Below, one piece after another: positions 10,409-60,283 of a DNA stretch of 64,000 nt (position 1 is the first letter of the stretch; every line of letters begins with the position of its first letter). Both the position numbers and the translations under genes were made by a program. The stretch is from Elusimicrobiota bacterium. GTDB taxonomy: Bacteria; Elusimicrobiota; Elusimicrobia; UBA1565; UBA9628. The notes beneath the pieces are model-generated. The model searched no databases. It saw nothing but the letters and a program-made list of their open reading frames with translations, and had not been told where the DNA came from. The stretch is from positions 10,840 to 74,839 of the forward strand of contig DAIDHS010000008.1 in NCBI GenBank assembly GCA_027451985.1. Reading direction: 5' to 3'.

Positions 10409-10424
10409 TCCCGGCTTCTCGATC

Positions 10425-17415: not shown

Positions 17416-17430
17416 GTCAAGATCGAGGTT
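17416..17430. promoter_or_regulatory. 15-bp palindrome GATCTTGtCAAGATC about 28 nt upstream of the tal ATG, in the divergent tal / giant-OMP promoter region
   Basis: Read directly from the sequence. Adjacent AT-rich stretch AAAATATAAAATAAGTATAG lies between it and the giant-gene start. Confidence 0.3.
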
Positions 17431-17457
17431 GTTAAGACCGCCCCGCAGGAGGAATTC

Positions 17458-26311: not shown

Positions 26312-26958
26312 GAATCTTTCCGCCGGTAGATTTTCCGTGCGGGGACGCTCACGAGGCGTCGCTCGGGAAGGACGAGCGCGGTCAAGCGCCCGCCGTAGAC
26401 GCAGCCGGTGTCCAAGCCCACGGCGTTCTGGCGCAGGACGGGTTCGCGCCGCGACCAATGTCCGAAAACCGCCAGGCGCCCGCCGCGGTAGCGGGCATAC
26501 CAGGGCTCACCGCTTGGGGCGAGGCGGCGCAGGGTGATCAAATCCCAATCGGACTGCCGAACCAAAGGCCTGCCGGGATCGAAGCCAGCGTGCAGTACGA
26601 GGTAGTCATTTTCCCGAATCCAAAGCGGCCAGGAGGCGATGAAATTCCGGTAGCGAGCGCGCCGGCCGCTGAGTTGAATCCATGTCGCCGCGTCGAGAGT
26701 TTTGCCGTCGGGCAGTTCGGCGCCCCGCTTGCGGGATAAAAACCTCCGCTCGTGGTTTCCCAGCACGCAGCGGAGGTTCGGGGTTCCCATGGCCCAGTCC
26801 AGCACGCCCCGGCTGTCGGGGCCCTTGCCGATAAGGTCGCCTACGCTGATGAGCTTGTCCTGGGACGTGGCGCGGACCGCGCGTAGGAGGTCCTGCAATT
26901 CGTCCAAGCAACCGTGCACGTCCCCGAAAATTATGGTGCGGGCGTCCGCGCTGGCCAT
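26302..26958 (-). CDS. Metallophosphoesterase (calcineurin-like; ApaH/PrpE-type Ser/Thr phosphatase or diadenosine-polyphosphatase-like)
   Basis: IIFGDVHGCLDEL, SVGDLIGKGPDS and VLGNHE motifs. ATG 26958 sits 13 nt downstream of a TATAAT, giving a short or leaderless transcript. The track ORF begins at 27000. Confidence 0.7.
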   Translation of the reverse strand: MASADARTIIFGDVHGCLDELQDLLRAVRATSQDKLISVGDLIGKGPDSRGVLDWAMGTPNLRCVLGNHERRFLSRKRGAELPDGKTLDAATWIQLSGRRARYRNFIASWPLWIRENDYLVLHAGFDPGRPLVRQSDWDLITLRRLAPSGEPWYARYRGGRLAVFGHWSRREPVLRQNAVGLDTGCVYGGRLTALVLPERRLVSVPARKIYRRKDSWL

Positions 26959-47073: not shown

Positions 47074-47478
47074 ATGGATGAAGCGAAGGCCCTGACGGTG
47101 CTCATCGCGGACGACGATCCGGTCATCTGCAGAATGCTGGAACACGCCCTCCAAAAGCGGCGGATCAACGCGCTGAGCGCCGATTCTATTTCCGCGGTTG
47201 AGGCGGCGCTCAAGACAGGAAAGCCCGACGCGGCGCTCATCGATCTGGTGCTGGGACAAGACAGCGGCTGGGAGGCCTTGAGCGTTCTTCGTCGGCATAG
47301 CCGGATTCCTGTGATATTGATGACGGGCGGCGCCGTCAATGAGGAAACCGAGAAGGATGCCAAGCTGCTGGGCGCCCAGGCCGTGGTCTCGAAGCCGTTT
47401 GAAGTTGCCGAGATCGTCCGCCTCCTGTCTGATTTGTTTGGGAAATTCCCTCCGCCGCTCCTCCCGCCGCAGGCTTAA
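47074..47478 (+). CDS. Single-domain response regulator (CheY-like receiver)
   Basis: LIADDD, the phospho-acceptor region ALIDLVLGQDSGW and VVSKPF. 134 aa. Confidence 0.8.
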   Translation: MDEAKALTVLIADDDPVICRMLEHALQKRRINALSADSISAVEAALKTGKPDAALIDLVLGQDSGWEALSVLRRHSRIPVILMTGGAVNEETEKDAKLLGAQAVVSKPFEVAEIVRLLSDLFGKFPPPLLPPQA

Positions 47479-47581
47479 GCCGGATTTAAGCGGCCGGTAA
47501 CTTCGCCAACAGCTGCCGGGGCCACACTTCCAGATGAAGGCGCAAAGCAGGGGCGCCTCGAAGAATCCTGGAGGTGGAAAA

Positions 47582-48028
47582 ATGAAAGCGAAACTGGCGA
47601 TGCTGGCGGGGTTGGGGCTCATGGCGGGGTTGGCGGCGTGCAGCGGGGTCAACAGCCGGGTCAAGAACGGGGAAGTGGAGAGCGTCATCAACCAGAAACC
47701 CGATCATGGCGGTTATTTCGAGGCCATCGGCATCGGCGCCTCCGATCCGTCCTTGCCGACCCAGACCCAAAGAATGGCCTTGGCGCGCGACGCGGCCATT
47801 GTGAAGGCCCAGTACGAACTGCTGTCCATGATCAAGGGTGTGGAGTTGGAGGGCGGCGTGACGGTCAAGCAGGCGATGGAATCGGACTCCACCCTGCAGG
47901 CCAAACTCGACGAGGTCATCCGCGGCGCGGAAATCGTCAAAAGCGAGTTTACGTCTGATAATGGCTGCGTGGTGACCATGCGTCTGCCCAAGAGCAGCTT
48001 GAAGAAGATCATGGGGGCGAACTTCTAA
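47582..48028 (+). CDS. LPP20/FlgP-like outer-membrane lipoprotein
   Basis: Lipobox MKAKLAMLAGLGLMAGLAACSG. The mature domain is Ala/Val-rich with the LPP20 patterning (ARDAAIVKAQYELLSMIKGVELEGGVTV). GGAGGTGG RBS. Confidence 0.55.
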   Translation: MKAKLAMLAGLGLMAGLAACSGVNSRVKNGEVESVINQKPDHGGYFEAIGIGASDPSLPTQTQRMALARDAAIVKAQYELLSMIKGVELEGGVTVKQAMESDSTLQAKLDEVIRGAEIVKSEFTSDNGCVVTMRLPKSSLKKIMGANF

Positions 48029-48915
48029 TGAGCTTTCGGGCACGCTCTCTTGTCTTGCCGATCCTGGGATTTTTCGCGGGCTGCGCCTCCCTGCCTCGGG
48101 AAGGCGCGGCGCCGGGGCCCAAGATGGCGGAAGTCGAAGCCTCGGGCTGGGCGCCAGCCGGTCGCGGCGCGGCGCCGGGAGCGTGCCGTCGCGCCGTGGC
48201 CGATGCTCAATCTCGGGCGATCGGAAAAGCCGCGGGCGTCCTTGTCTTGGCCCGGACCAGGGTCGAGGACGGCGTGGCCCTGGGGCAGGAAATCACGGCA
48301 GACGCCCGGGGTGTCATCCGCCGCTACGGCGTGCTTGATGAGAACTTTGTGGGCGGAGCCTGCCGCGTCCGCATCCGCGCCCTGGTGGAGATTCCCGGCC
48401 CGGGCCAAGAACCCGGGCGGGACGCGTCTTGGCCTGTTCCGCCGCACACGCGCGTCGTGGTGGAGATGCGGGCGCAGGAGCCGCAGGCCGAAGCCTGGAT
48501 TCGAGAGGCCGATGCGGCCGCGGCGGCACAGCTCGCGGCGCACGGCTTCGAAGTCGTGGCGGATTCCTCGCCGGACGCCGGGTTTTTTGCTTGGACCGTT
48601 CAAGGCCGGGTGGCGGCCTACCACATCAAAGACGCTCAACTCGGCGCGTTCGTCTCTTATCGCGGCGTGGTCAGCGCGGAAATCCTGTCGCCGGCGGGAG
48701 TATCTCCCATTTGGAAAAAATCGTTGGAAGCGCCCGCGCTGGGGCTCGACGCCGCTCAAACCGCGGCGCAGGCCGCGCAAAACGCCGCGGCGCAGGCCGG
48801 CAAGGCCGCGGCGCAGGCGTTGGTCGCTCATTTGGCAAATTCGTTGCTAAACTCATCGTTCATAACCTACAATCTGGGACGGAATGCCTTCCAAAATCCT
48901 GGTCATCGACGATGA
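48028..48915 (+). CDS. Lipoprotein with an LPP20-like N-domain plus a second TolB-N/CsgG-clan-like domain
   Basis: Lipobox LVLPILGFFAGCAS. AVADAQSRAIGKAAGVLVLARTRVEDG region. Start overlaps the upstream stop as TAATG. Confidence 0.5.
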   Translation: MSFRARSLVLPILGFFAGCASLPREGAAPGPKMAEVEASGWAPAGRGAAPGACRRAVADAQSRAIGKAAGVLVLARTRVEDGVALGQEITADARGVIRRYGVLDENFVGGACRVRIRALVEIPGPGQEPGRDASWPVPPHTRVVVEMRAQEPQAEAWIREADAAAAAQLAAHGFEVVADSSPDAGFFAWTVQGRVAAYHIKDAQLGAFVSYRGVVSAEILSPAGVSPIWKKSLEAPALGLDAAQTAAQAAQNAAAQAGKAAAQALVAHLANSLLNSSFITYNLGRNAFQNPGHRR

Positions 48916-49576
48916 GCGCAAGATCCTCGACATCGTCAAGAAATACCTGACCGAGCACGGCTATTCGGTCGTGGTGACCGATAATGGTTCCGAGGGCCTT
49001 ATGCTGACCCGGGAATCCGAGCTAGATCTCATTCTGAGCGATGTGGAGATGCCTGACCTCGACGGCCGCGCCGTCTGCCGCGTCATTAAAAAAGAAGCCT
49101 CCAGCCGGCAGATTCCCGTCATCCTGATGTCCGGCGCGCGCACCGACGACAAGGATATCCTCTCGGGGTTCGAGGGCGGCGCCGACGACTACGTCACCAA
49201 GCCCTTTTCCTTGCCGGTGCTCTTGGCGCGCATCCAGGCGGTTCTGCGGCGCTACAGCGCGTCCGCGGCCATGGAGAAAAAGCTCAAGAAGCGCGGCATC
49301 GAGCTCGATCCGGCCGGCAGGACCGTTTCGGTCGACGGGAAATCGGTGTCCCTGACTCGCAAGGAATTCGATTTGCTTTCTCTCCTTATTGAAAAGGCCG
49401 GCCGTGTCCTCAGCGTCACCTACCTGCTCGAGACCGTCTGGGGCTACGATCCGGCCGACTACAACGACCCGGGGACCGTCGAGGTCCACGTCTCCCACCT
49501 GCGCAAGAAGCTGGGCTCCAAGGCCGCCAAGCACATCGTCAACGTGCTGGGCCACGGCTACAAGTTCGAAGAATAG
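48884..49576 (+). CDS. OmpR-family response regulator (receiver plus winged-helix DNA-binding domain)
   Basis: ILVIDDE, DLILSDVEMPDLDG and ADDYVTKPF in the receiver domain. C-terminal LTRKEFDLLSLL...VWGYD is the trans_reg_C domain. Confidence 0.85.
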   Translation: MPSKILVIDDERKILDIVKKYLTEHGYSVVVTDNGSEGLMLTRESELDLILSDVEMPDLDGRAVCRVIKKEASSRQIPVILMSGARTDDKDILSGFEGGADDYVTKPFSLPVLLARIQAVLRRYSASAAMEKKLKKRGIELDPAGRTVSVDGKSVSLTRKEFDLLSLLIEKAGRVLSVTYLLETVWGYDPADYNDPGTVEVHVSHLRKKLGSKAAKHIVNVLGHGYKFEE

Positions 49577-49669
49577 CCCTCTGAATTAAGCCGGAGTTAA
49601 GACGCCCTTATCCCGCGCGACAGCGCCGCCCGCTATCCTGAGGGCATGAACGTAGACGGCGGAGGGCTT

Positions 49670-50674
49670 ATGAAAAGAGCGAAAGAGAGCAGCGTCATCG
49701 CGGCCGCAGTCTTGGCATGCGCGCCGCTTTCCCGCGCGGGCGGCTTCGAGGCCATGGCCAAGACTCTGTCCTACGCGGCGCGGGGCGCGGGAATTTCCCA
49801 AGTGGCGGTCGTCCCCTTCTCCTCCGTGGATGGGCAGCCCGGCGACGACGGCCGGGTCATCTCCGAGAACCTTATCACCCGAATGGTGCACCTGGGCAAG
49901 GTTTCCGTGGTGGAGCGCTCCATGATTAAGAAGCTCATGGCCGAAGACCTTCTGGATCAAACCGGAGCCGTGGCGCCTTCCTCCGTGCAGGAGCCGGGCA
50001 AAATGCTCGCGGCTAAAGGCATCGTGACCGGCACCTTCCACGACACCGGCGACGGCGTGATAGTCAACGCGCGGCTCATCGATGTGGAGACCGGCGTCAT
50101 CTTAGCGGCCGCGGAGCGCGAGGTCGACGAAAATCAGTTTGGGGATTCCTCCAGCGCGGGTTTCGGCGGGGAGGGAGGGACCATCTGGGTGGCCGCGCCT
50201 CGATTAACCGTGCCCGCGCCGGCTTTTCCACCGGATCGGCAGGACGACATCAGGGGCGCCTTGGCCGAGGCGTCCGCTCCGCAGACCGCACCCCCGCCTG
50301 CCGATCCGGCGTCGCTTCCCGGAATGGCCGACGCTTCGGCGGCCGGCCAGGAGGACGCCGCCCTGCAGGACGGCTGCGCGGACGCCGCCGCACGGGTGGA
50401 CAAGATGGAGGCGCGCATCCTGGAAATCAAGGCCCGCTATTGGGCTGGGCGGCTGCGCGACGGATTGTCGCCTGAGAGCCTCAGAATCAATCCCGGCTCG
50501 ATGATTTCGGATCCGGCGCTCAAGAAGGAGTTCTTCTCCCGCCTGGAGTACTGGTACCACCAAGATCGCATTCCCAGGCTGAGCTCCGGCGAGGCGCGGC
50601 GCCTGGTCGCCATGGATGGGGAGGCTTACTCTATCTACAACGACTGCGGGAGCCGGCTGGCCTTGGCGCAATAA
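49670..50674 (+). CDS. Exported, possibly lipidated, protein with a FlgO/CsgG/TolB-N-clan periplasmic domain and a C-terminal domain of unknown function
   Basis: Signal peptide MKRAKESSVIAAAVLAC. VAVVPFSSVDG...RSMIKKLMAEDLL...GIVTGTFHDTGDGVIVNARLIDVETGVI has the characteristic patterning of this clan. GGAGGG RBS before ATG 49670. Confidence 0.45.
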   Translation: MKRAKESSVIAAAVLACAPLSRAGGFEAMAKTLSYAARGAGISQVAVVPFSSVDGQPGDDGRVISENLITRMVHLGKVSVVERSMIKKLMAEDLLDQTGAVAPSSVQEPGKMLAAKGIVTGTFHDTGDGVIVNARLIDVETGVILAAAEREVDENQFGDSSSAGFGGEGGTIWVAAPRLTVPAPAFPPDRQDDIRGALAEASAPQTAPPPADPASLPGMADASAAGQEDAALQDGCADAAARVDKMEARILEIKARYWAGRLRDGLSPESLRINPGSMISDPALKKEFFSRLEYWYHQDRIPRLSSGEARRLVAMDGEAYSIYNDCGSRLALAQ

Positions 50675-50697
50675 AACGATTCAATCGGGGGGAAAAC

Positions 50698-51638
50698 ATG
50701 AAAAACAGGATTCTGGTGGCGGATGACGAGCCTCTGGTGCAGAATATCGTGGCCAAGACATTCGCGGGTGAGTCGTATGAAATTATCCGGGCCGATAACG
50801 GTGTGGACGCGCTGGCTTTGGCGGTGCGGGAGAATCCCGACTTGATGATCACGGACGTGTGCATGCCGGGGAAAACCGGTTGGGAAGTCCTCGAGGAGAT
50901 GCACCGTAATCCGCGCACGCGCCTCATTCCCATCATCATGCTGACCGGCATGGGGGTCACCTCGGAGGATGAGGTGCGCGGCCTTGAGGCCGGAGCCGAC
51001 GAGTATATCGCCAAGCCGTTTACGCCTTCGGAACTTCGGGCCAGGGCCCAGTGCCTTCTTCGCCGCTGCCGGCTCGATCTTTCCGTCAATCCGCTGACAC
51101 GACTGCCCGGCAGCCCCAGTATTGAGGATGAGGTCGAGCGGCGCATTCGCGAGGGCCGCTCCTTTTCCTTCCTATACGCCGACATCGACAACTTCAAGCC
51201 CTACAACGACGTCTACGGATTCGCGGCCGGCGACGCCGTCATTCGAGAGACGGCTTCCATCTTTATGGCGAGCACCGCGGCCGAGGTTCCGAGAGGAAGC
51301 TTCGTGGGCCATATCGGCGGTGATGATTTCGTGGTTGTGGCAGACGCGGAACACGCCTCCCAAGCGGCGCGCACGGCCGCCGCTCGTTTCGATGGAGCCG
51401 TTCCGGTTTTTACAGGAGCGAGGATGTGCGCCGCGGCTTCATCGAGACCGCAGATCGGCAAGGCCGCCTGCGACGTTTTCCGCTTCTGTCCCTTTCCATT
51501 GGGGGAGTCAACTGCCCGCAGCGCCGGTTTAAGCGCTACGCGCAGGTCGTGGAAGTCGCCGCGGAGATGAAGGCCTACTGCAAGACGCTCAATTTCCGGG
51601 GTTTGAGCCGCTTCGCCTTCGACCGGCGGGCCGCCTAA
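50698..51638 (+). CDS. Response regulator with a C-terminal GGDEF-type domain (GGDDF variant), interrupted by a frameshift near a T5 run around 51407-51411. Either a pseudogene or a homopolymer sequencing error.
   Basis: REC motifs ILVADDE, DLMITDVCMPGKTGW and ADEYIAKPF. Then LYADIDNFKPYNDVYGFAAGD and GHIGGDDFVVVAD in frame A up to about 51410. The conserved downstream motifs FPLLSLSIGGV and VAAEMKAYCK continue only in another frame (ORF 51426..51638). Confidence 0.6.
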
Positions 51639-51669
51639 GCCCCGGCCAGCCGCGTTCGGAACAAATCGT

Positions 51670-53856
51670 CTAGGCGTTCTTGCCGTCGAGGGTTTCCCGG
51701 ATTTTGCTCAACACGGCGTCCGCGGTCAGTGGTTTTTGCAGGAAGGGAACGTTCTTGGGCAGCGTCGGGTCTACGGCCAGCTGCTCCGTGTAGCCCGACA
51801 TGAAGACGACCTTCATTCCGGGCCGTAGCGGCGCCATGCGCTCGGCGAGCGCGTAGCCGTGCATCTGAGGCATGATGACATCGGTGAGCATCAGGTCGAT
51901 GGGATCCTTGATCCGCGCGCAGATTTCGAGCGCCTCGGCCGGCCCGCGCGCCGCCAGGATCGTGTAGCCGCTTTCGCGCAGAACGCGCGCGGCGAATTTG
52001 TGCACTAGCTCGTCGTCCTCGACCAGCAGAATCGTCTCTTTCCCCTTCGCGGCACGGCATTTCGGATTTTGGAATTCGCCGGTGACCGGATCTTCGACGC
52101 GCGGCAGGTAAATCTTGAACGAAGTGCCTTTCCCAGGTTCGCTGTAGACATAAATGCTCCCCTGGCTCTGCTTGACGATGCCGTAGACCGTGGCCAGACC
52201 CAAGCCCGTGCCCTTGCCCTGTTCCTTGGTCGTGAAGAACGGCTCGAAGATGCGAGCTTTGACCTCCTCGCTCATGCCGCAGCCCGTGTCGCTGACCGCC
52301 AGCATGACGTAGGAGCCGGGGGCGCATCCCGGGTGGGCGGCGGCGTAGCTTCCATCAAGCTCGATGTTGGCCGTCTCGATGATCAGCCGTCCGCCCTGGG
52401 GCATGGCATCCTTGGCGTTGACGGCCAGGTTGACTACGGCCTGCTCAATTTGGCTCGGATCCGCCTTAACCCTCCCCAGCTTTGCGCCGGGCGCGAAGGA
52501 GAAATCAATGTCCTCGCCGATGATGCGCCGGAGCATTTTCTCCAGGTCCGCGAGCACGGCGTTGAGGTCCAGCACGCGGGGCTGCAGCACTTGACGGCGG
52601 CTGAATGTCAAAAGCTGGCGCGTCAAGGCGCCGGCCCGCTCGCTGGCCTTCATAATTTCCAGCACGTCGTCGCGCCGCGCGTCGTTCTCGGGCAGGCTGT
52701 CGAGCAGGAACCGGCTGTAGCCGCCGATGGCGGTCAGGAGATTGTTGAAGTCGTGGGCGACGCCGCCGGCCAGGCGCCCGATGCCTTCCATCTTTTGGGC
52801 TTGACGCAGCTGCTCCTCGGTTCGGACCAAGCGTTCCCGCGCCGTCTTTTCCTCGGTAATGTCCCGGATCACGCCCACGGTCCGAACCGGCTGTTCCTGC
52901 TCGTCCTTGTAGGCCTTGCCTCTGAAGGAGAGCCAATGGATGCTGCCGTCCGGCCAGACGATGCGGTGCGTGTTCGCGAATTGGCGTTTTTCCTCGAGGC
53001 CGCGCCGGACATCGCGCTCGACGGTGTCGCGGTCCTCGGGATGTACGGCGGCAAGATAGGTCTCGTAGCTCGCTTCGACTTCCGGACCGACACCCAAGAT
53101 CGCCCGGAACAGGGGCGACCATCCCGTCTTTCCCGTTTTCTTATCCGAAGACCACAGGCCGAGATGTCCCGCTTCCACGGCGAGGCGCTGGCGTTCCTCG
53201 GTCTGGCGAAGATTTTGCTCCATGTTCACGCGCTCGGTGATGTCGTGGCGGATGACGATGTACTGGCGGGGCTTGCCGTCTTCGCCCAGAATCGGCGTGA
53301 CGACCGTGGACTCCCAAAAAAGCGCGCCGTTCTTGGCGCGGTTGCACACTTCTCCGCGCCAGACTTGGCCCGCGGAGATGGTCGACCAGAGGGCTTGAAA
53401 AAATTCCTTGGGATGGACGCCGGAGTTGATGAGGCGGTGGTTTTTGCCCAGCAGTTCCTCGCGCGAGTAGCCGGAGAGCTCGCAGAACCGGTCGTTGACG
53501 TAGATGATGCGTCCTTCGGTGTCTGTGGCGGCCACGTCGGCGGAGTTGTCCAAGGCGGTCCAAATGTCCCCGATGACCTTTTGGCATTGGCGTTCGCCAA
53601 GCGCTCTCGATTCGGCGGTGCGCTGCTGGCTGGAAGCCACGGCGCGGGCGGTCAAGTAGATCAGCGCCATGGTTCCGATAACGCCGAGCCACACTCCGAG
53701 CTTGGCGTCGGTTGAGTGCGCACTCGCGCCCAGGGTCAGCAGCAACGCCCTGTCGATCGTGAGCCACCCTGCTTTCCAGAGGAGGTAGGCGGCAGCGGTC
53801 AGGGCGGCGATGCGGTCCGGCGAGGCGAGGGCGAGGCGTTGGATACGGAGGCGCAT
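51670..53856 (-). CDS. Hybrid sensor histidine kinase: 2 transmembrane segments, two PAS domains, HisKA, HATPase_c and a C-terminal receiver
   Basis: PAS motifs [28 protein letters not shown]-box [22 protein letters not shown] and DTGCGM...[11 protein letters not shown] ATPase boxes. C-terminal REC with ILLVEDDE and LMLTDVIMP. Confidence 0.85.
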
Positions 53857-53897: not shown

Positions 53898-56699
53898 ATG
53901 CGGGCCGGAGGGCCCAGGTCGGCGGGGGCCCGAAGCCCCTGCCCAGGCGGCGGCGCGCGCCTTACAATGTTTAATATGGCGCTTCTGGTTTTTCTGCTGA
54001 GCCTTTGCTTGGCGCTTCCCGTGACGAGGGCCCGCGCCGCTTCTGAAGACGCCGCCGCCGCGCCCGAGATTTCGCAGCCGGCTTCCCTCGATGTCCCCGC
54101 CGCGCCCGCCTTCCTCGACTCCGCGCTGCTTTCCCCGGGCGTCGGCGCCTCCTTGGTTGAGTTCGCTCCGCTCTCTCAATCCGACGCATTGCCCCATGCC
54201 GCTGTTGTTGCGCCGAAAGGAGCGGCCGCGCGTGCCGGCGCTCCGGCCTCCGCCTCCGCCGTTTTACCGGCATCCGCGGCGGCTCTTGAACGCGCGCCCG
54301 CGCATGAGGCTGCGGCCGCCGTCCCCGCTGAGAATCTTTCCGCTTCCGCGTCCCCCCGCGCGCCTCCCCGCGTCGCGGTGGCCCAGGCTTCCGACTTGGC
54401 TCCGAGCGCCGCGCCGGAGCGCAAGGGAGCCGCCGCCTCTGCCGGCGAAAAGGCTTCCGAGGTTTTCGACGGCGGTCGGCGCTTAAACGTCTTGACCGCC
54501 GGCGCCGAGGCGGTGCCCTTCATCAAGACCGGCGGCTTGGCCGACGTGGTGGACGCGGTCTCGCGGGGCTTGGCCGCGCGCGGCCACCGGGTCATGCTGG
54601 TCCTGCCCAAGTACCGCGGCCTGAAGCTGGGCGACGCCGAGTTCAAGCCGGCGGGCGAGATTTCGGTGCCCATGGGAGAGGGCGTCCAAATCGCGAGCCT
54701 CCTGGCCGCGAAGGTCAACGGCGTGGACGTCGTCCTCATCGACCACGCCGGGTATTACGACCGGCCCGGCGGCCCTTACCAGGGCCAGGCCTCGTCCTAC
54801 AGCGAGGACGACAACGACGAGCGCTTCGCCTTCTACGCGCGCGCGGCGCTCGAAGCCGCCAGAGCCCTCGATTTTAAGCCGGACGTGGTCCACGCGCACG
54901 ACTGGCACGCCGCGCTCATCCCCGTGTTCCTGAAGTCGGCCTACGCCGCCGACCCGTTCTTCGCCGGGACCAAGACCGCGATCACCATCCACAACCTCGC
55001 CTTCCAAGGCCTTTTCGCACCGGACATCGCGCGGAGGCTGGGTCTGCCGCCTCATTATTTGGAGCCCATGGCGCCGCTGGAGTACTGGGGCAAGGCGAGC
55101 TACCTGAAGGCCGGACTGGTCCTCGCGGACGCGGTCACCACCGTGAGCCCCACTTACGCCCGCGAGATTTTGGGCGAAGAGTTCGGCATGGGCATGCACG
55201 GGGTGCTCCAGGCCCGCCAAGACGGCGTCCGCGGCATCTTAAACGGCCTCGATTTGAAGATGTGGGATCCGGCGACGGACCCGGTCGCGCCGCGAAACTA
55301 CGCGGCCGAGGACGCCGCGGAGGGCAAGGCCGCCAACAAGGCCTGGCTGCAGAACCGGCTGGGCCTGGACGCCGAGCCGGAGGCGCCGCTTTTCGCCGTG
55401 GCCTCGCGCCTGGCGCACCAAAAGGGCATCGACGTCGCCGTCGCGGCCATCGACGAGATGGTCGCGCGCGGCGCGCAGGTGGTCATCACGGGCTCGGGCG
55501 ACAAGGAGCTGGAGAACGCGGTCGCGGCCGCGGTCCTGCGCCATCCGGGCCGCGTCGCCGCGCATCCCTTCGACGAGTCCTTCGTGCGCGTGGTCTACGC
55601 CGCCGCGGATTTTCTCCTGATGCCGTCGCGCTTCGAGCCCTGCGGGCTCTCCCAGCTCATCGCCCAGCGCTACGGCGCGCTGCCGCTGGTGACCCGCACC
55701 GGCGGTTTGGCCGACACCGTGACGGACCTGCGCGAAAACGCGCAGGGGGGCGACGGCTTGGTGATGCGCGAGCCCAGCGCCGCGGGTTTGATTGCGGCCG
55801 TGGACGCCGCCGTCGAACTTTACCGCGCCCCCGAATCCTTCGCTGCCGCGCGCGCCACGGCCATGGCCAAGGATTCGTCCTGGGGCCGGGCGCTCGACGC
55901 CTACGAGGCGCTTTATCGAGAACTGTTGGGAGAAACCGGAAGTCCGCGGCCGGATTCGGCGGACGAGATTCTCTCCGCGGGAGACACCGGCGTAGTGCGC
56001 ACCCCGGACGTCGCCGCGGGCCTGGAATTTCTGCGCGAGAGCTCCTATCCGCTCGACCCCCAGGTCGCGCGCTTCATCGAAGCCATCCGGAAGGAGCATC
56101 CGGAACTGCCCGTTTCACCCGAGCGCGTCTTTTTGATCCGCGATCCCGCCGTGCTCGCGCGTTTGGGCCTGCCCGAGGCCGCGGGCGGGGCGGCGCGCAT
56201 TCTCACCGACGGACGCGCCGAGATTCCGGTGGTGCTCATCGCGGCCGCGCACGGCGTTCCCGCCGACCAATTCGTCGAGTTTACGGTTCACGAGGCGGTG
56301 CACTTGATGGACGGGGGCATCCTGCGCGTGCCCAACGGCCGGGTTTTGTCCCATTTCTTCGCCGAGGGCTGGACGCAAAAGCGCGCCGTGGAAAAGGCCA
56401 ACGACGTCCTGCCCCGGCTGGGCTTGCCCAGGACGCCAAGCCGCGCCTACCGCAAGGAGGTCGCGCTGGCCGACGCTTTCCTGGCCCGGCACGGCGCTTC
56501 GGCTCTTGATGAGCTCGTGCGCGCGGGCTCGGACGAGGGCCTGCGCCGCGCGCTGGGCTCGCGCTGGGATTTCGCGGTTGCGATTTCGCGCTGCCCGGCG
56601 CCGCGGGAGAAAAAGCTCAACGCGCTCATCGCCCTTGTCAACGCGCCGTCCTTCGGTCCCGCTGAAGAAAACGCCTTGCGCGACTATTTGAACCTCTAG
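53898..56699 (+). CDS. glgA-like: Glycogen-synthase-like GT5 glycosyltransferase (GlgA-type core) with a predicted N-terminal Sec signal peptide, a ~165-aa Ala/Pro/Ser-rich linker and a ~330-aa C-terminal extension of unknown function
   Basis: VPFIKTGGLADVVDAVSRGLAARGHRVMLVLPKY is the GlgA KTGGL N-terminal motif. RFEPCGLSQLIAQRYGALPLV is the GT-B EPCGL motif. N-terminus MRAGGPRSAGARSPCPGGGARLTMFNMALLVFLLSLCLALPVTRARA|AS. The C-terminal extension contains an isolated HEAVH. Confidence 0.75.
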   Translation: MRAGGPRSAGARSPCPGGGARLTMFNMALLVFLLSLCLALPVTRARAASEDAAAAPEISQPASLDVPAAPAFLDSALLSPGVGASLVEFAPLSQSDALPHAAVVAPKGAAARAGAPASASAVLPASAAALERAPAHEAAAAVPAENLSASASPRAPPRVAVAQASDLAPSAAPERKGAAASAGEKASEVFDGGRRLNVLTAGAEAVPFIKTGGLADVVDAVSRGLAARGHRVMLVLPKYRGLKLGDAEFKPAGEISVPMGEGVQIASLLAAKVNGVDVVLIDHAGYYDRPGGPYQGQASSYSEDDNDERFAFYARAALEAARALDFKPDVVHAHDWHAALIPVFLKSAYAADPFFAGTKTAITIHNLAFQGLFAPDIARRLGLPPHYLEPMAPLEYWGKASYLKAGLVLADAVTTVSPTYAREILGEEFGMGMHGVLQARQDGVRGILNGLDLKMWDPATDPVAPRNYAAEDAAEGKAANKAWLQNRLGLDAEPEAPLFAVASRLAHQKGIDVAVAAIDEMVARGAQVVITGSGDKELENAVAAAVLRHPGRVAAHPFDESFVRVVYAAADFLLMPSRFEPCGLSQLIAQRYGALPLVTRTGGLADTVTDLRENAQGGDGLVMREPSAAGLIAAVDAAVELYRAPESFAAARATAMAKDSSWGRALDAYEALYRELLGETGSPRPDSADEILSAGDTGVVRTPDVAAGLEFLRESSYPLDPQVARFIEAIRKEHPELPVSPERVFLIRDPAVLARLGLPEAAGGAARILTDGRAEIPVVLIAAAHGVPADQFVEFTVHEAVHLMDGGILRVPNGRVLSHFFAEGWTQKRAVEKANDVLPRLGLPRTPSRAYRKEVALADAFLARHGASALDELVRAGSDEGLRRALGSRWDFAVAISRCPAPREKKLNALIALVNAPSFGPAEENALRDYLNL

Positions 56700-56725
56700 C
56701 GCGGCCGTTTTTGTAGAATGTCGCG

Positions 56726-59665
56726 GTGACCTTCCGGCAAAAGCTCGTCGCCGCGCTCGTCGCTTTGGCCGTGGCCTTGGCGGTCGTCCGGGTTGCGGGC
56801 CGCCCGCGCGTAAAATCAAGGGCGATTGTCCCGCCTCCTCCTCCGGTTTTTGCCAGGCAGGCGCTGCCCACGGGCATGACCATCACGCCCTTGGCCGCGC
56901 CGGGATCGTACTTTATTCCTTTGAACCCGCGCCTGCCCGGCCTGCCGGACTACATCGCGGGCCAGCCGGTCACGCTGGCGAAAAGCCCGGACGGCAAGAC
57001 GCTTCTGGTGCTGACCAGCGGCTACAACCGGGTCAACGCGCCCTCGGGCCGGACCATCCCGGGCTATTCCGAGGAATACGTCTTCGTCTTCGATCTCTCC
57101 GGCGGTGCCGCGCGCTTTAAGCAGGCGCTTAAGGTTCCCAACACCTTCGACGGCCTCGCCTGGAGCCCGGACGGGCGGGAATTCTACGCTTCGGGCGGCG
57201 ACGATGACGACGTCCACGTCTTCGCCGAAAAAGACGGCCGCTGGGCCGAGGACGGCGCGCCCATCGCTTTGGGCCACAAGAAGGGGCTGGGCATCGACGT
57301 CGAGCCGGAGGCCGCGGGCCTGGCCGTCACGCCCGACGGCCGGCGTTTGGTCGTGGCCAATTTCGAGAACGATTCCGTCAGCGTGGTCGATGTGCGGTCG
57401 CGCCGCAAGGTCGCGGAACTGGACTTGCGGCCTGGGAAAACCAATCCGCGCTTGAAGGGCGTTCCGGGCGGCGAGTTTCCTTTCTGGGTGGCGCTGCGCG
57501 GAAACGACGCGGCCTACGTATCTTGCCCGCGGGACCGGCAAATCGTGGCGGTCAATCTTGCCGGGGCGCCCAAGGTGATGCGGCGCATCGCCGTGCCCGG
57601 CGAGCCCAATAAGATGATCTTCAACCGCGCGCGAACGCTGCTCTTCGCGGCCCTGGGCACGGACGACGCCGTGGCGGTCATTGACGCCCGCACGAACCGT
57701 TTGGCGGGCGTGCTCGGCACCACCGCGCCGCCCGCGATTTTCTCCAACCGGCGGGATTTAAAGGGCAGCAACCCCAACGGTCTGGCGCTCTCCCAAGTCG
57801 AGAAGACGCTCTACGTCTCCAACGGCGGCGCGAACTCCGTGGCGGTCATCAAACTCGCGCGGAGCCGCGGCCGGGTGACGGGCCGAGTCTCGGGCCTCAT
57901 CCCCACGGCGTGGTACCCCAGCGCGGTGAGCCTGTCCCCGGACGGCCAAACCCTCTATGTCGCCAACACGCACAGCGTGCCGGGCCCCAACGTCGGCGGC
58001 TGCCGGGACACGCTCTCGACCCTGCGCGGCTCCTTGGACGCCTGCCGCGGGCAAAATCAGTTCATCCTCCAGCTCTCCAAGGGGGGCTTCGAGGCCGTGC
58101 CCGTGCCGTCCGCGGGCGAGTTGGCCGTCTTGACCCGGCAGGTCGCGGACAACGACCACTACGGGCCCGACCCCAAGCGCGCGGCGGACGCGGCGATGAT
58201 GGCGTTCCTGCACCGGCGCATCACGCACGTCATCTACATTATTAAGGAGAACCGCACCTACGATCAGATTCTGGGCGACTTGCCGGAAGGCAACGGCGAC
58301 CCGCGCTTGGCGGTGTTCCCGCAGCCGCTCACGCCCAACCAGCACCTGCTTGCCTCGAAGTTCGTGGACCTGGATAATTTTGACGACAGCGGCGAGGTGA
58401 GCGGCAACGGCTGGAACTGGTCGACCGCGGCGCGCGCCACGCAGATGGTGGAGGCCACCATCCCGGTCTACTACGCCGGGCGGGGCTTGAGCTACGATTA
58501 CGAGGGGGACAACCGCAACGTCAACGTGGGTTTCGCCACGCTCGCCCTGCGCCGCGCGGCCAATCCCGACACCCCCGACGACCCGGATTTGCTGCCCGGC
58601 ACCGCGGACGTGGACGCCCCCGACGGACCGGACGACGACGCGGGCATGGGCTACCTGTGGGACGCGGCCATGCGCGCGAAGCTGAGCGTGCGCAACTACG
58701 GATTTTTCCTGGATCTCTCGCGCTACTACGACAAGCCCGGCACGCCCGGCTACCTGCCGCCCTTGACCAATCCCTACGCCGCGCACGTGCGCGTGGCCTA
58801 CCCGACGCGGCCCGAGCTCATGGCCGTGACCGATCCGTATTTCCGGGGCTTCGATCTCAAGTTCCCGGACTACTGGCGCTTCAAGGAATGGGACCGGGAG
58901 TTCCGCCATTATGAAGCCGAAGGCCGGCTGCCGAATTTGGAGATGGTGCGCTTCATGCGCGATCACACGGGCGCTTTCGGCCAGGCCATCGACCACGCGG
59001 GGACGCTCGAGGACGAAGTCTCCGATAACGACTACGCCGTCGGACTTCTGGTGCAGGCGGTGGCGAACAGCCCCTTTCGGAACAATACGCTCATCTGCAT
59101 CGTTGAGGACGACGCGCAAAACGGCCCGGATCACGTCGACGCCCACCGCAGCACGGCCTTCTTCGCGGGCGCTTACGTCAGGCAGGGCGCCGTGGTCTCC
59201 ACGCACTACACCACGGTCAATCTGCTGCGCACCATCGAGGGCGTGCTGGGCTTAAAGCCCCTGGGCATCAACGACGACGTGGAAGCGCCGATGGCGGACG
59301 TCTTCTCCAAAACACTCAAGCCCTGGAGCTTTGCGGCGCTGGTGCCTCAAGTCCTGCGCACGACGGATTTGCCCCTGCCGCCCGCGACGCCGGCGGAAAA
59401 AGCCGCGGCCGCGACGCCCGAAGGCCGTCTTTACGCTAAGTCCCGGCGTTCCGCGGCGTACTGGGCGGCCAAGACCAAGGGCTTTGATTTCAACGTCGAG
59501 GACCACATCGATTCGGCGCTCTTTAACCGCATCGTCTGGCGCGGGATGATGGGCCGGAGCGATCCCTACCCTGCGGCGCGCGGCGGCCGCGACCTGCGCG
59601 CCAACCGGCGGGAACTCTTAAAGCGCTATTGGGCGCGGGTGCTGAGCGAGAGCCCCAAAAGCTGA
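56726..59665 (+). CDS. Exported bifunctional-architecture protein: YncE/YVTN-type beta-propeller N-domain plus a phosphoesterase-family domain (phospholipase C / acid phosphatase AcpA type, PF04185-like)
   Basis: N-terminal signal/anchor MTFRQKLVAALVALAVALAVV. Propeller repeats with LAVTPDGRRLVVAN and VSLSPDGQTLYVAN. ITHVIYIIKENRTYDQILGDL and CIVEDDAQNGPDHVDAHRSTAFFAGAYV are the phosphoesterase-family motifs. Confidence 0.7.
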   Translation: MTFRQKLVAALVALAVALAVVRVAGRPRVKSRAIVPPPPPVFARQALPTGMTITPLAAPGSYFIPLNPRLPGLPDYIAGQPVTLAKSPDGKTLLVLTSGYNRVNAPSGRTIPGYSEEYVFVFDLSGGAARFKQALKVPNTFDGLAWSPDGREFYASGGDDDDVHVFAEKDGRWAEDGAPIALGHKKGLGIDVEPEAAGLAVTPDGRRLVVANFENDSVSVVDVRSRRKVAELDLRPGKTNPRLKGVPGGEFPFWVALRGNDAAYVSCPRDRQIVAVNLAGAPKVMRRIAVPGEPNKMIFNRARTLLFAALGTDDAVAVIDARTNRLAGVLGTTAPPAIFSNRRDLKGSNPNGLALSQVEKTLYVSNGGANSVAVIKLARSRGRVTGRVSGLIPTAWYPSAVSLSPDGQTLYVANTHSVPGPNVGGCRDTLSTLRGSLDACRGQNQFILQLSKGGFEAVPVPSAGELAVLTRQVADNDHYGPDPKRAADAAMMAFLHRRITHVIYIIKENRTYDQILGDLPEGNGDPRLAVFPQPLTPNQHLLASKFVDLDNFDDSGEVSGNGWNWSTAARATQMVEATIPVYYAGRGLSYDYEGDNRNVNVGFATLALRRAANPDTPDDPDLLPGTADVDAPDGPDDDAGMGYLWDAAMRAKLSVRNYGFFLDLSRYYDKPGTPGYLPPLTNPYAAHVRVAYPTRPELMAVTDPYFRGFDLKFPDYWRFKEWDREFRHYEAEGRLPNLEMVRFMRDHTGAFGQAIDHAGTLEDEVSDNDYAVGLLVQAVANSPFRNNTLICIVEDDAQNGPDHVDAHRSTAFFAGAYVRQGAVVSTHYTTVNLLRTIEGVLGLKPLGINDDVEAPMADVFSKTLKPWSFAALVPQVLRTTDLPLPPATPAEKAAAATPEGRLYAKSRRSAAYWAAKTKGFDFNVEDHIDSALFNRIVWRGMMGRSDPYPAARGGRDLRANRRELLKRYWARVLSESPKS

Positions 59666-59674
59666 GGAGGCCGC

Positions 59675-60283
59675 ATGATTCGTCTAGCCGAAGGCGTTTA
59701 TTCCTGGGGCGCGTTCAACGATGAGAAGGGCATGAATTTCAACGGGCACCTGGTCGTCCGCGGCCAAGAGACGCTGGTCGTCGACCCGCCGCCTCACACG
59801 CAGAATGAGGAGAAGTTTTTGGAGCGCGCGCTCAAGGCGCGGCCGACGCTGGTCGTCGCCACCAACAAGCACCACCTGCGCGACGCGCGCTGGTGGATGG
59901 AGCGCTACGGCGCTCCGCTGGCGATGCATGAGTCCGAGGAGAACGATTTCGGCTTTTCTCCAGCGCGGCGCATCAAGGACGGCGACGAGATCGCGGCCGG
60001 CTGCCGCGTGGTGCACCTGCCGGGCAAGACGCCGGGCGAGTTCGGGCTTTATATAAAGGCAAGCGGGGGGACGCTGATTGTGGGCGACGCGCTCATCGGC
60101 CATCCAGCCGGCGCGCTCAAGATTCCGCCCGACGACAAGCTGCAAAGCCGCGCGGAACTCGTGGGCTCCCTGCAAAAGCTGCGCGAGCTTTCCTTTGAGC
60201 GTCTGCTCGTGGGCGACGGCGAGCCCCTTTTGTCCGGCGCGAAAGCGGCCGTGCTCGCCTTTTTAGACGGGCTCAAGGCCTAG
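59675..60283 (+). CDS. MBL-fold metallo-hydrolase
   Basis: 202 aa. His/Asp-rich metal-binding arrangement TNKHHLRDARWW...HLPGKTPGEF consistent with the metallo-beta-lactamase fold. Motif recognition is moderate. Confidence 0.6.
   Translation: MIRLAEGVYSWGAFNDEKGMNFNGHLVVRGQETLVVDPPPHTQNEEKFLERALKARPTLVVATNKHHLRDARWWMERYGAPLAMHESEENDFGFSPARRIKDGDEIAAGCRVVHLPGKTPGEFGLYIKASGGTLIVGDALIGHPAGALKIPPDDKLQSRAELVGSLQKLRELSFERLLVGDGEPLLSGAKAAVLAFLDGLKA

What the first reader, a model, noticed from the sequence alone, without database searches (positions are those of the whole stretch)
53898..60283. Predicted exported glycogen-synthase-like GT5 with an unknown C-terminal domain, next to a beta-propeller/PLC-type phosphoesterase and an MBL hydrolase
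The GlgA core (KTGGLADV, EPCGLSQL) normally uses cytoplasmic ADP-glucose. Here it follows a canonical Sec signal peptide (positively charged n-region, h-region ALLVFLLSLCLALPV, ARA|AS cleavage site) and an Ala/Pro/Ser-rich linker. It also carries a 330-aa C-terminal extension containing an HEAVH (HExxH) element. The next gene encodes an exported YncE-type propeller fused to a PLC/AcpA-family phosphoesterase. An extracytoplasmic GT5 would imply synthesis or remodelling of an alpha-glucan outside the cytoplasm, or use of a non-canonical donor. Alternatively the hydrophobic segment is a membrane anchor that keeps the catalytic domain cytoplasmic.
Basis: partly seen in the sequence, partly recalled or inferred. 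Interest (0 to 1): 0.55.

Follow-up and report, generated by a model that had tools for sequence, protein, structure and literature searches.

The report
Signal-peptide-bearing glycogen synthase fused to zincin-like domain
An Elusimicrobiota gene encodes an intact glycogen synthase carrying a secretion-signal-like start and a long flexible linker, a feature shared by all its full-length relatives retrieved from this phylum, and here it is also newly fused to an unknown metalloprotease-like domain; if the enzyme really works outside the cytoplasm, that would be unprecedented for this enzyme class.

Summary
The ORF is real. It holds a complete, catalytically intact ADP-glucose-type GlgA core (aa 196-677). 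Three corrections apply.

1. The arginine-rich n-region comes from an unsupported upstream start. The conserved start is ATG 53976 (MALLVF...), which leaves no K/R before the hydrophobic segment.
2. The C-terminal extension is 256 aa, not 330. It is a confidently folded HExxH...E (gluzincin-like) domain with no known relative. In other Elusimicrobiota it is a free-standing protein. The closest relative lacks the fusion, so the fusion is recent and has no independent confirmation.
3. The propeller-phosphoesterase and MBL neighbours are syntenic only in close relatives.

The main result is new. All 78 full-length Elusimicrobiota GlgA orthologues carry a Sec-type signal peptide (usually AxA|Q), then a ~100-aa Ala/Pro/Ser linker. 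In most, the linker ends in an FDG motif.

Similar N-terminal architecture heads other proteins: a GH13 amylase, several HExxH proteins and an ABC exporter. Most, though not the GH13 amylase or the free-standing C-terminal-domain family, also end the linker in [FW]DG. Several of their genes lie next to glgA.

Export is the simplest reading (about 0.45). It conflicts with the need for ADP-glucose and with the ABC exporter's topology. A cytoplasmic-face tether remains a serious rival (about 0.35).

The parts
53898..53975 (+). In-frame upstream extension of the longest ORF. Most likely a non-coding leader or promoter region, with TACAAT at 53963-53968.
   Evidence: DNA is conserved in window, L025, L005 and L002, with spacing to the shared ATG of 7, 6, 6 and 9 nt, so the frame is not kept. 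The upstream peptide of orthologue REEB145 is unrelated. NCBI's call starts at M24.
53976..54038 (+). Signal-peptide-like / signal-anchor-like segment, MALLVFLLSLCLALPVTRARA.
   Evidence: The start codon is invariant in 4 relatives. The segment is more hydrophobic than in other family members (my approximate dG scan gives -1.9 against +0.6 to +0.8). The family-wide counterpart is a textbook SPase-I signal.
54039..54464 (+). Low-complexity Ala/Pro/Ser-rich linker of about 142 aa. It is more acidic here than in most orthologues.
   Evidence: 58% A/P/S and 16% charged residues. Family medians are 106 aa, 55% A/P/S and 8.5% charged. The family's longest charge-free run has a median of 46 aa, against 20 in the GlgA core.
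54465..54476 (+). FDGG junction motif that ends the N-terminal module, directly before strand 1 of GlgA.
   Evidence: FDG is present in 75 of 97 GlgA homologues. [FW]DG occurs at the same place in six other cargo families. Coordinates.
54483..55928 (+). GT5 glycogen/starch synthase catalytic core (GT-B), ADP-glucose type.
   Evidence: TIGR02095 518 bits, NF001899 494 bits above cutoff. PF08323 at 197-438. Full-length alignment to 1RZU (E=2.8e-104) and 2QZS with catalytic motifs kept.
55929..56699 (+). C-terminal 256-aa domain of an uncharacterised Elusimicrobiota family ('DUF-A'), gluzincin-like. HEAVH at 56289-56303, candidate third-ligand Glu at 56364-56366.
   Evidence: 38 homologues, 46-73% identical. 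Nearly all are free-standing, about 330 aa, with their own signal peptide and linker. H121, E122, H125 and E146 are invariant. AF2 pLDDT is 95.2, with sheet, then HExxH helix, then Glu helix. No Pfam, NCBIfam or PDB sequence hit. Only sub-threshold fold hits, enriched in zincins.
55945..56705 (+). Block absent from the closest relative (REEB145, L008): the recent in-frame fusion of DUF-A onto glgA.
   Evidence: blastn: window 55151-55921 matches L008 1-771 (91%), and 56700-57500 matches L008 889-1688 (93%). L008's glgA ends ...YREILGAPGRSPH*. No second fused copy turned up in genome or metagenome scans.
56726..59665 (+). Neighbour gene: N-terminal hydrophobic anchor, YVTN/YncE-type beta-propeller, then a phosphoesterase (PLC/AcpA-like) domain.
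   Evidence: TIGR02276, PF10282, PF04185 (weak) and TIGR03397 (weak). PDB propeller hits 1L0Q and 5C2V. ENRTYD and DDAQNGPDHVDAH motifs at aa 501-513 and 793-809. Syntenic with glgA only in L002 and L008.
59675..60283 (+). Neighbour gene: small metallo-beta-lactamase-fold protein.
   Evidence: PF14597 94.6 bits. Absent between the propeller gene and the NmrA gene in L002.

Best explanation
Genes 53976-56699 encode an Elusimicrobiota-type glycogen synthase.

Shown:
- The protein has a complete ADP-glucose-type GT5 core.
- In front of the core sits a portable N-terminal module: a Sec-type signal peptide, a charge-poor Ala/Pro/Ser linker and an FDG junction. This module is on all 78 full-length GlgA orthologues retrieved from this phylum.
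- Similar N-terminal architecture heads several other proteins: a GH13 alpha-amylase, three unrelated HExxH families, a protein I call alpha/beta-hydrolase-like from its sequence motif only, and an ABC exporter. Some of their genes lie next to glgA or next to the gene for the C-terminal domain.
- In this genome a 256-aa gluzincin-like domain, normally a separate module-bearing protein, has recently been fused to the C-terminus.

Inferred, most likely reading:
- The signal peptide is functional. It takes the N-terminus, and with it the linker and the catalytic domain, across the inner membrane.
- The enzyme would then act in the envelope, together with the co-targeted GH13 amylase, to build or remodel an alpha-glucan.
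- In the window's own protein the segment is more hydrophobic and has lost its n-region charge. It may stay as an uncleaved anchor or be cut at ARA|AS.

The sugar donor outside the cytoplasm is unknown. This is the weakest step.
For: - 78 of 78 full-length orthologues (45-80% identical) have an N-terminal hydrophobic segment. 68 have K/R before it. The uncharged run has a median of 14 aa, too short for a transmembrane helix. 54 have small-x-small and 58 have Gln next.
- Ala at -1 is conserved in at least 90% of sequences across GlgA and DUF-A modules.
- Similar AxA|Q ends occur on other predicted exported proteins of the same genomes: one I read as beta-barrel-like (L024 7190-8392) and one as thioredoxin-like (L017).
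- Divergent orthologues (P0079-P0097) have hydrophilic linkers that cannot re-cross a membrane.
- The operon SP-linker-GH13a / GlgA is found in L020 and L006. One ORF in L023 reads SP-linker-GH13a-GlgA, which puts both enzymes behind a single signal.
- GH13a is closest to the Geobacillus and Anoxybacillus alpha-amylases 4E2O and 5A2A.
- In the older GlgA-DUF-B fusions (P0044, P0047, P0081, P0085), two strong TM segments flank a loop with about 10 positive charges. This fits both soluble domains lying outside.
- A 2023 preprint reports GT5 glycogen-synthase-like domains as frequent parts of giant Omnitrophota proteins, and lists glycosylation of extracellular proteins among their possible roles.
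Against: - The core keeps every motif of ADP-glucose-dependent GlgA. No nucleotide-sugar pool is known in a bacterial periplasm (general knowledge).
- A 2024 review of prokaryotic alpha-glucan enzymes describes a secreted GlgA only in Chlamydia, by type III secretion.
- The same module heads a complete ABC half-transporter with 6 TM segments and a nucleotide-binding domain. Its N-terminus must be cytoplasmic.
- None of the roughly 10 cargo families is an unmistakably periplasmic protein.
- If the weak third hydrophobic segment of DUF-B is a real TM helix, GlgA would lie in the cytoplasm. AF2 does draw it as a helix, at low pLDDT.
- The window's own segment lacks n-region charge and is followed by RxR.
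- No signal-peptide predictor was available.
Confidence: 0.45

Rival explanations
1. Cytoplasmic-face tether. The signal-peptide-like segment and linker do not export the cargo. They hold GlgA, and the other module-bearing proteins, at the inner membrane or on a common scaffold, with the catalytic domain in the cytoplasm where ADP-glucose is made. The glucan may then be handed to membrane partners for export. In the window's subclade the segment would work as a reverse (N-out, C-in) signal anchor.
For: - The ADP-glucose-type active site is intact.
- The module-ABC exporter requires a cytoplasmic junction. It is conserved in L017, L034, P0162 and P0163.
- All cargo whose side can be assigned (GlgA by chemistry, ABC by topology) are cytoplasmic.
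- memB is a module-less paralogue of memA over its C-terminal hydrophobic part.
- The window, REEB145 and P0121 have no charge before the segment and RxR after it, and a TM-grade hydrophobic segment.
- The linkers exclude charged residues: the median longest charge-free run is 46 aa.
- In most relatives glgA sits beside UDP-glucose dehydrogenase, epimerase and GT2 genes, not beside glgB/C/P.
Against: - The h-regions, about 10-14 aa, are too short to span a membrane.
- A tether would not need a conserved -3/-1 cleavage motif with Gln at +1.
- The n-regions are positively charged in 68 of 78 orthologues, which orients the C-terminal side outward.
- The Pro-rich linkers are not predicted to span a membrane, and they are hydrophilic in divergent members.
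- An integral ABC protein has no need of a membrane tether.
- Early-mature-region charge does not distinguish module proteins from ordinary signal-peptide-like proteins in these genomes.
- The neighbouring propeller-phosphoesterase, which I would expect to be exported, shows the same excess of Arg after its h-region.
Confidence: 0.35
2. The GlgA-DUF-A fusion is not a functional architecture. It is either an assembly chimera of the MAG or a very recent neutral rearrangement. The ordinary state is two separate genes.
For: - The closest relative (about 91-93% nt identity) has a stop after GlgA and no DUF-A.
- The 80%-identical relative L002 also lacks it.
- REEB337 and GcC5-9 carry glgA and DUF-A on different contigs.
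- The protein cluster has a single member on a single contig.
- No other fused copy was found in the genome or metagenome scans.
Against: - The junction is in frame.
- The inserted block ends exactly at a stop codon, where homology to the relative resumes.
- GC3 is high and uniform across the ORF, 0.85.
- GlgA has acquired other C-terminal domains in this phylum: the TM + HELTH domain in P0044, P0047, P0081 and P0085, another extension in P0053, and an N-terminal GH13 in P0069. Such fusions are therefore a habit of the family.
Confidence: 0.2
3. The N-terminal extension is an annotation artefact. The real protein would be an ordinary cytoplasmic GlgA that starts near the catalytic core.
For: - The longest-ORF start is indeed wrong.
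- One subfamily has a conserved Met directly before FDG, and one gene call (P0040) starts there.
Against: - The signal segment, the post-signal motif and the FDG junction are conserved as protein across 78 orthologues and across unrelated cargo families.
- The window gene has no ATG between M27 and the core, and I saw no plausible GTG start with a nearby ribosome-binding site (sequence).
Confidence: 0.03

Closest known systems
Canonical bacterial glycogen synthase GlgA (GT5; E. coli 2QZS, A. tumefaciens 1RZU)
   Same: aa 196-677 align end to end (E=1e-98 to 1e-104) with all catalytic and ADP-glucose-binding motifs. The match passes the NCBIfam GlgA equivalog cutoff.
   Different: The canonical enzymes are about 477 aa, cytoplasmic, and start at strand 1. 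This one has a ~170-aa signal-like segment plus linker in front and a 256-aa HExxH domain behind.
Secreted GlgA of Chlamydia trachomatis
   Same: It is the only GlgA the 2024 review describes as secreted. It makes glycogen in the inclusion lumen (PMC11046441, PMC4829429).
   Different: Chlamydial secretion is by type III secretion, with no Sec signal. The donor, UDP-glucose, is supplied by a host transporter. Elusimicrobiota MAGs from groundwater and soil have no such host compartment.
GT5 domains in giant 'Archaeovorin' proteins of Omnitrophota (preprint 10.1101/2023.11.21.568195)
   Same: Glycogen-synthase-like GT5 domains sit in giant proteins implicated in cell-wall degradation by predatory bacteria. 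The authors list glycosylation of extracellular proteins among possible roles.
   Different: Those are domains inside proteins of more than 10,000 aa. I made no sequence comparison with them, and their localisation is also only predicted.
Fungal alpha-1,3-glucan synthase Ags1/Mok1 (GH13 + GT5 + multi-TM; from general knowledge)
   Same: The GH13 and GT5 parts list matches the L020/L006 operon and the GH13a-GlgA single ORF.
   Different: In Ags1 the GT5 domain is cytoplasmic and the GH13 domain is outside, separated by TM helices. Here both sit behind one signal with no TM between them. Homology of the membrane parts was not tested.
Minimal gluzincins (HExxH + downstream Glu; thermolysin-like motif spacing, SprT/IrrE-like cores)
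   Same: The C-terminal domain has invariant HExxH and a Glu 21 residues after the second His, on the next helix, preceded by a small sheet. The best sub-threshold fold hits are peptidases: AM0627, SprT, M34 and IrrE-like.
   Different: No significant sequence or fold match to any family. The best Foldseek E-values are 0.37 (PDB) and 0.13 (BFVD), and hmmsearch against PDB returns nothing. It is unrelated to the HELTH domain fused to GlgA in other lineages.

Membership tests
GlgA (GT5, ADP-glucose-type glycogen synthase) | Full-length match to curated GlgA models above their cutoffs | tested here: met
   TIGR02095 518.4 bits (cutoff 328.45) and NF001899 494.3 bits (cutoff 459), covering model positions 2-477.
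GlgA (GT5, ADP-glucose-type glycogen synthase) | Catalytic and nucleotide-sugar motifs: KTGGL, HAHDW, HN, R/K of SRLxxQKG, Glu of EPCGL, RTGGLADTV | tested here: met
   All are present and aligned to 1RZU and 2QZS.
GlgA (GT5, ADP-glucose-type glycogen synthase) | Cytoplasmic protein without targeting sequence | tested here: not met
   A ~170-aa signal-like segment plus linker precedes the core, in the window and in 78 of 78 full-length orthologues.
GlgA (GT5, ADP-glucose-type glycogen synthase) | Uses ADP-glucose to elongate alpha-1,4-glucan | not testable with these tools
   Needs an enzyme assay.
Sec/SPase-I signal peptide | Positively charged n-region | tested here: not met
   Not met for the window protein from its supported start, MALLVF.... 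Met in 68 of 78 orthologues.
Sec/SPase-I signal peptide | Short hydrophobic h-region (7-15 aa) with a helix breaker | tested here: met
   ALLVFLLSLCLALPV in the window. The family's median uncharged run is 14 aa, with Pro or Gly near its end.
Sec/SPase-I signal peptide | Small residues at -3 and -1 | tested here: met
   ARA|AS in the window. 54 of 78 orthologues have small-x-small, 58 of 78 are followed by Gln, and Ala at -1 is at least 90% conserved.
Sec/SPase-I signal peptide | Called by a trained predictor; cleavage and export shown | not testable with these tools
   No SignalP or DeepTMHMM was available. I used my own heuristics and an approximate dG scan only.
Gluzincin metallopeptidase (C-terminal domain) | HExxH plus a third-ligand Glu on the following helix | tested here: met
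   H121, E122, H125 and E146 are invariant in 34 sequences. Helices 112-128 and 139-164 follow strands 67-70, 87-93 and 98-105.
Gluzincin metallopeptidase (C-terminal domain) | Significant fold or sequence similarity to a known zincin family | tested here: inconclusive
   There are only sub-threshold Foldseek hits, though they are enriched in peptidases. There are no profile hits.
Gluzincin metallopeptidase (C-terminal domain) | Zinc binding and peptidase activity | not testable with these tools
   Needs biochemistry.
PLC/AcpA phosphoesterase (neighbour gene 56726-59665) | Match to PF04185 / acid phosphatase models | tested here: inconclusive
   PF04185 scores 25.8 bits (cutoff 23) but aligns only aa 499-524. 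TIGR03397 has E=0.003, far below its cutoff. The motifs ENRTYD and DDAQNGPDHVDAH are present.
Metallo-beta-lactamase fold (59675-60283) | Match to MBL models above cutoff | tested here: met
   PF14597 94.6 bits (cutoff 28.4) and PF00753 29.2 bits.

The most novel reading that the evidence does not exclude
Elusimicrobiota run a Leloir-type (nucleotide-sugar-dependent) GT5 alpha-glucan synthase outside the cytoplasm. It would be one of a set of proteins routed by a previously undescribed portable N-terminal module: a Sec signal, a charge-poor Ala/Pro/Ser linker and an FDG junction. The set would also include a GH13 amylase, HExxH proteins and an ABC exporter. This would imply either delivery of ADP- or UDP-glucose to the periplasm (candidate carriers: the module-bearing ABC exporter or the memA/memB proteins) or a new targeting and topology mechanism that places a signal-bearing chain on both sides of the inner membrane.
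Probability: 0.3. Interest if true: 0.9.

Novelty: new variant of a known kind. Interest (0 to 1): 0.62.

Why it matters
Glycogen synthases of the GlgA type are textbook cytoplasmic enzymes, because their donor, ADP-glucose, is made in the cytoplasm.

A phylum-wide GlgA lineage with a conserved cleavable-type signal peptide and catalytic residues still under selection forces one of two conclusions. Either nucleotide-sugar-dependent glucan synthesis occurs in a bacterial envelope, or a sequence that looks in every respect like a Sec signal does something else.

The second option is made concrete by the same module on an ABC exporter whose topology forbids export of that end. Both outcomes can be tested with simple reporter fusions.

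The work also defines three things:
- a new portable N-terminal module;
- two new HExxH protein families linked to GlgA by independent gene fusions;
- a GH13-GT5 operon and fusion in bacteria.

Tried and rejected
- Upstream start at 53898. Rejected: the upstream frame is not conserved and the ATG at 53976 is invariant.
- C-terminal domain as a known GlgA-associated or other known domain. Rejected: no Pfam, NCBIfam or PDB sequence hit and no significant fold hit in PDB or BFVD.
- DUF-A homologous to the HELTH domain (DUF-B) fused to GlgA elsewhere. Rejected: hhalign probability 0.25%. The DUF-B model also has no PDB neighbour.
- Linker as a hidden transmembrane pass. Kyte-Doolittle peaks reach about 1.5, but the segments are Pro-rich, score +5 to +10 kcal/mol on a biological scale, and are absent in divergent members.
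- Conserved Arg at +3 as an export block. Dropped: ordinary signal-peptide-like proteins in these genomes also have early K/R.
- Profile search for more module cargo in 1.84 billion representatives. It gave only 3 hits, because the profile is too short.
- P0121 as an orthologue of the fusion with the core deleted. Rejected: it has a different genomic context. It is a free-standing DUF-A gene with a glgA-like 5' region.
- Functional link to the propeller-phosphoesterase and MBL genes. Not supported: synteny holds only in L002 and L008, and the ancestral glgA neighbourhood lies elsewhere (window 37-7976).
- Riboswitch or other RNA in the conserved leader. Rfam found nothing in the window, and the sigma-70 consensus scan found no full promoter.
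- Other glycogen genes (glgB, glgC, glgP) in the window or in Elusimicrobiota loci. Motif scans found none apart from the GH13a genes.
- memA/memB as topology evidence. The TM predictions are too marginal to use.

Full report
**What is there**

The longest ORF, 53898..56699(+), is 933 aa. GC3 is 0.85 along the ORF.

Residues 196-677 are a complete glycogen/starch synthase:
- PF08323 covers 197-438, followed by GT1-type C-terminal half matches.
- TIGR02095 scores 518 bits, and the GlgA equivalog NF001899 scores 494 bits, above its cutoff of 459.
- The core aligns end to end with the solved A. tumefaciens and E. coli enzymes (1RZU E=2.8e-104; 2QZS E=1.6e-98).
- KTGGLADV, HAHDWH, HN, SRLxxQKG, EPCGLSQL and RTGGLADTV are all retained.

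Named database relatives are all Elusimicrobia/Elusimicrobiota MAG proteins. The window is therefore from that phylum.

**The start codon**

- NCBI's call for the identical protein (P0001, 910 aa) starts at M24.
- I aligned the 5' regions of the window, the closest relative REEB145 (L005), L002 and L025. The DNA is conserved, and a shared TACAAT lies 7, 6, 9 and 6 nt before an invariant ATG (window 53976). These spacings do not keep the reading frame.
- The upstream peptide of REEB145 is unrelated to the window's.

The supported N-terminus is MALLVFLLSLCLALPVTRARAASEDAAAAPE. The hydrophobic segment and an AxA site remain. There is no K/R before the segment and there are two Arg after it. A simple consensus scan found no full sigma-70 promoter, so the TACAAT reading is an inference.

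**The N-terminal module is a property of the phylum**

Among the best 97 homologues (45-80% identical in the core), 78 are full-length with at least 110 aa before KTGGL.
- All 78 begin with a signal-peptide-like segment.
- 68 have K/R in the n-region.
- The uncharged run has a median of 14 aa.
- 54 end in small-x-small, and 58 are followed by Gln.

Typical examples are MIRVLIALLLIPAPSFA|QVRGN and MRRRASFLLSLVLAGSAAA|QTRVA.

Ala at -1 and Arg at +3 are at least 90% conserved in an alignment that also includes the unrelated DUF-A family. Similar AxA|Q ends are seen on other predicted exported proteins of the same genomes. One I read as beta-barrel-like (MRLFLVFLALAAAALPVAA|QVDPD), and one as thioredoxin-like.

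After the signal comes a linker with a median of 106 aa, 55% Ala/Pro/Ser and few charges. The longest charge-free run has a median of 46 aa, against 20 in the catalytic core. In 75 of 97 homologues the linker ends in FDG, a few residues before strand 1 of GlgA.

The window's linker is longer (about 143 aa) and more acidic.

**The same module on other proteins**

In about 0.5 Mb of related DNA I found similar architecture on the following proteins:
- A GH13 alpha-amylase (GH13a). This one has no [FW]DG junction.
- A partly hydrophobic protein (memA).
- A TM + HELTH domain protein (DUF-B).
- A protein with two HExxH domains.
- A protein I call alpha/beta-hydrolase-like on the basis of a sequence motif only.
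- P0161, of unknown function and with no clear junction motif.
- An ABC half-transporter.

Gene order links several of them:
- L020 and L006 carry memA / GH13a / GlgA / GH13b-Glucodextran_C / memB as an apparent operon.
- In L023 one ORF reads SP-linker-GH13a-GlgA once the upstream frame is included.
- In L021 the DUF-B gene follows glgA. In P0044, P0047, P0081 and P0085 it is fused to GlgA's C-terminus.
- The hydrolase-like gene and the DUF-A gene form a divergent pair in four loci, and the module-ABC gene lies within 10 kb in two of them.

GH13a is closest to the Geobacillus and Anoxybacillus alpha-amylases 4E2O and 5A2A.

**The C-terminal domain**

Residues 678-933 (256 aa, not 330) have no Pfam, NCBIfam or PDB sequence relative.

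They have 38 homologues at 46-73% identity. Where these are named, they are Elusimicrobia hypothetical proteins. Nearly all are free-standing, about 330 aa, and carry their own signal peptide and Ala/Pro/Ser linker.

H121, E122, H125 and E146 (domain numbering; HEAVH ... AEGWTQ) are invariant.

AlphaFold2 run on this alignment gives pLDDT 95.2. The order is a small sheet, then the HExxH helix (112-128), then a helix carrying E146 (139-164). This is the gluzincin arrangement.

Foldseek finds nothing significant in PDB or BFVD. The best sub-threshold hits are peptidases: AM0627, SprT, M34 and IrrE-like.

The domain is not related to DUF-B. The DUF-B model also has no structural neighbour.

**The fusion is recent**

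REEB145 is 91-93% identical at the nucleotide level on both sides. Its glgA ends ...YREILGAPGRSPH*, and the propeller gene follows after about 120 nt.

Window ~55,945-56,705 replaces about 117 nt of that sequence. Homology resumes right after the window's stop codon.

L002 (80% identical) also lacks the domain. Two MAGs carry glgA and DUF-A on separate contigs. Neither the genome scan nor the metagenome scan found another fused copy.

P0121 has a glgA-like 5' region, signal, linker and FDGG joined directly to DUF-A. It sits in a different genomic context, so it is a free-standing DUF-A gene with a shuffled module. It is not a confirmation of the fusion.

**Neighbours**

The propeller-phosphoesterase and MBL calls are correct at the domain level. 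The phosphoesterase evidence is weak.

The order glgA then propeller gene is shared only with L002 and L008, and L002 has no MBL gene there.

In most other Elusimicrobiota, glgA lies between an FprA-like reductase gene and a 107-aa membrane protein gene. Beside these are two UDP-glucose dehydrogenase genes, an epimerase gene and a GT2 gene. That gene set is present in the window at 37-7976 without glgA. glgA was therefore relocated in this subclade.

I see no evidence that the three genes of the finding work together.

**Which side of the membrane?**

For export:
- The cleavage-type signal is conserved, and its h-regions are too short for a membrane span.
- Hydrophilic linkers in divergent orthologues cannot re-cross the membrane.
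- In one ORF a single signal precedes both GH13a and GlgA.
- The DUF-B fusions have two strong TM segments around a loop with about 10 positive charges. This arrangement would leave both soluble domains outside (the dG scale there is my own approximate implementation).

Against export:
- The ADP-glucose-type active site is intact.
- No nucleotide-sugar supply to a bacterial periplasm is known. The 2024 review of prokaryotic alpha-glucan enzymes describes a secreted GlgA only in Chlamydia, via type III secretion with host UDP-glucose.
- The strongest sequence argument is the module-bearing ABC half-transporter. It is complete in L034 (932 aa) and conserved in L017, P0162 and P0163. It has a canonical 6-TM domain and a nucleotide-binding domain, so the chain just after the module must be cytoplasmic.
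- AF2 draws the third, weak hydrophobic segment of DUF-B as a helix, at low confidence. If that is a real TM helix, the DUF-B argument reverses.

Arguments I examined and dropped:
- Charge near the cleavage site does not separate module proteins from ordinary signal-peptide-like proteins here.
- The neighbouring propeller protein shows the same Arg-rich flank as the window's GlgA.

A possible precedent exists. A 2023 preprint finds GT5 glycogen-synthase-like domains to be common in giant Omnitrophota proteins implicated in cell-wall degradation.

**Verdict**

It concerns a phylum-wide, module-bearing GlgA lineage, not one odd gene.

My estimates:
- Export of the catalytic domain: about 0.45.
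- A cytoplasmic-face tether: about 0.35.
- Separately, that the C-terminal fusion is an artefact or a neutral accident: about 0.2.

No paper in the searchable library describes a Sec-signal GlgA or periplasmic glycogen.

Noticed in passing
L034 8377-11175 (also L017 12672-13925; P0162, P0163): A complete ABC half-transporter (6 TM segments plus a nucleotide-binding domain) is preceded by the same signal-like segment, ~150-aa Ala/Pro linker and RFDG motif as GlgA. Its topology is incompatible with export of that N-terminus.
   Followed up: partly
window 37-7976: This is the gene set that flanks glgA in most other Elusimicrobiota: a 107-aa membrane protein, an FprA-like reductase, a GT2, an epimerase, two UDP-glucose dehydrogenases and a 633-aa protein. 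It is present here without glgA, so glgA moved to 53.9 kb in this subclade.
   Followed up: partly
L020 6150-15374; L006 5679-14872; L023 ~9650-13405: An operon reads memA / SP-linker-GH13 amylase / GlgA / GH13+Glucodextran_C / memB. In L023 a single ORF reads SP-linker-GH13a-GlgA. This GH13 and GT5 domain pairing resembles that of fungal Ags1.
   Followed up: partly
P0101, P0106, P0110, P0111, P0115, P0119: These are 1,550-1,630-aa proteins, one of them named as Deltaproteobacteria. In the two scanned in detail, GH13 sits at about 310-680 and GT5 at about 1,140-1,600. Their architecture was not examined further.
   Followed up: no
L017 1322-3928; L018 1941-4466; L032 8127-10741; L034 1-1321: There is a conserved divergent gene pair. 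One gene encodes a module-bearing protein I call alpha/beta-hydrolase-like (motif ..LHSFG..), the other the free-standing DUF-A (HEAVH) protein.
   Followed up: partly
window 53898-53975; L025 190-263; L005; L002: A GC-rich 5' leader with inverted GGGCCC repeats and a TACAAT box is conserved upstream of genes with different cargo (glgA in three of them, the DUF-A gene in L025). This suggests the promoter, signal and linker move together as a cassette. There is no Rfam match.
   Followed up: partly
P0029, P0035, P0037, P0038, P0040: One GlgA subfamily has a conserved Met immediately before FDG (AMFDGALKIL), and one gene call starts there. An internal start could give a signal-less cytoplasmic isoform.
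   Followed up: no
P0053 aa 640-931: A third, unrelated ~290-aa C-terminal extension with no HExxH sits on a signal-bearing Elusimicrobiota GlgA.
   Followed up: no
window 11283-17459(-) and 22553-26458(-): Two very long ORFs, 2,058 aa and 1,301 aa. The second has a signal peptide ending CA|QVEENG. Neither was analysed.
   Followed up: no
window 47074-53856: A cluster of signalling genes lies upstream of glgA: response regulators, a diguanylate-cyclase-like protein, and a PAS-PAS-HisKA-HATPase-REC hybrid kinase transcribed divergently from glgA. The kinase and the cyclase-like gene are also present, about 5 kb further upstream of glgA, in L002.
   Followed up: no
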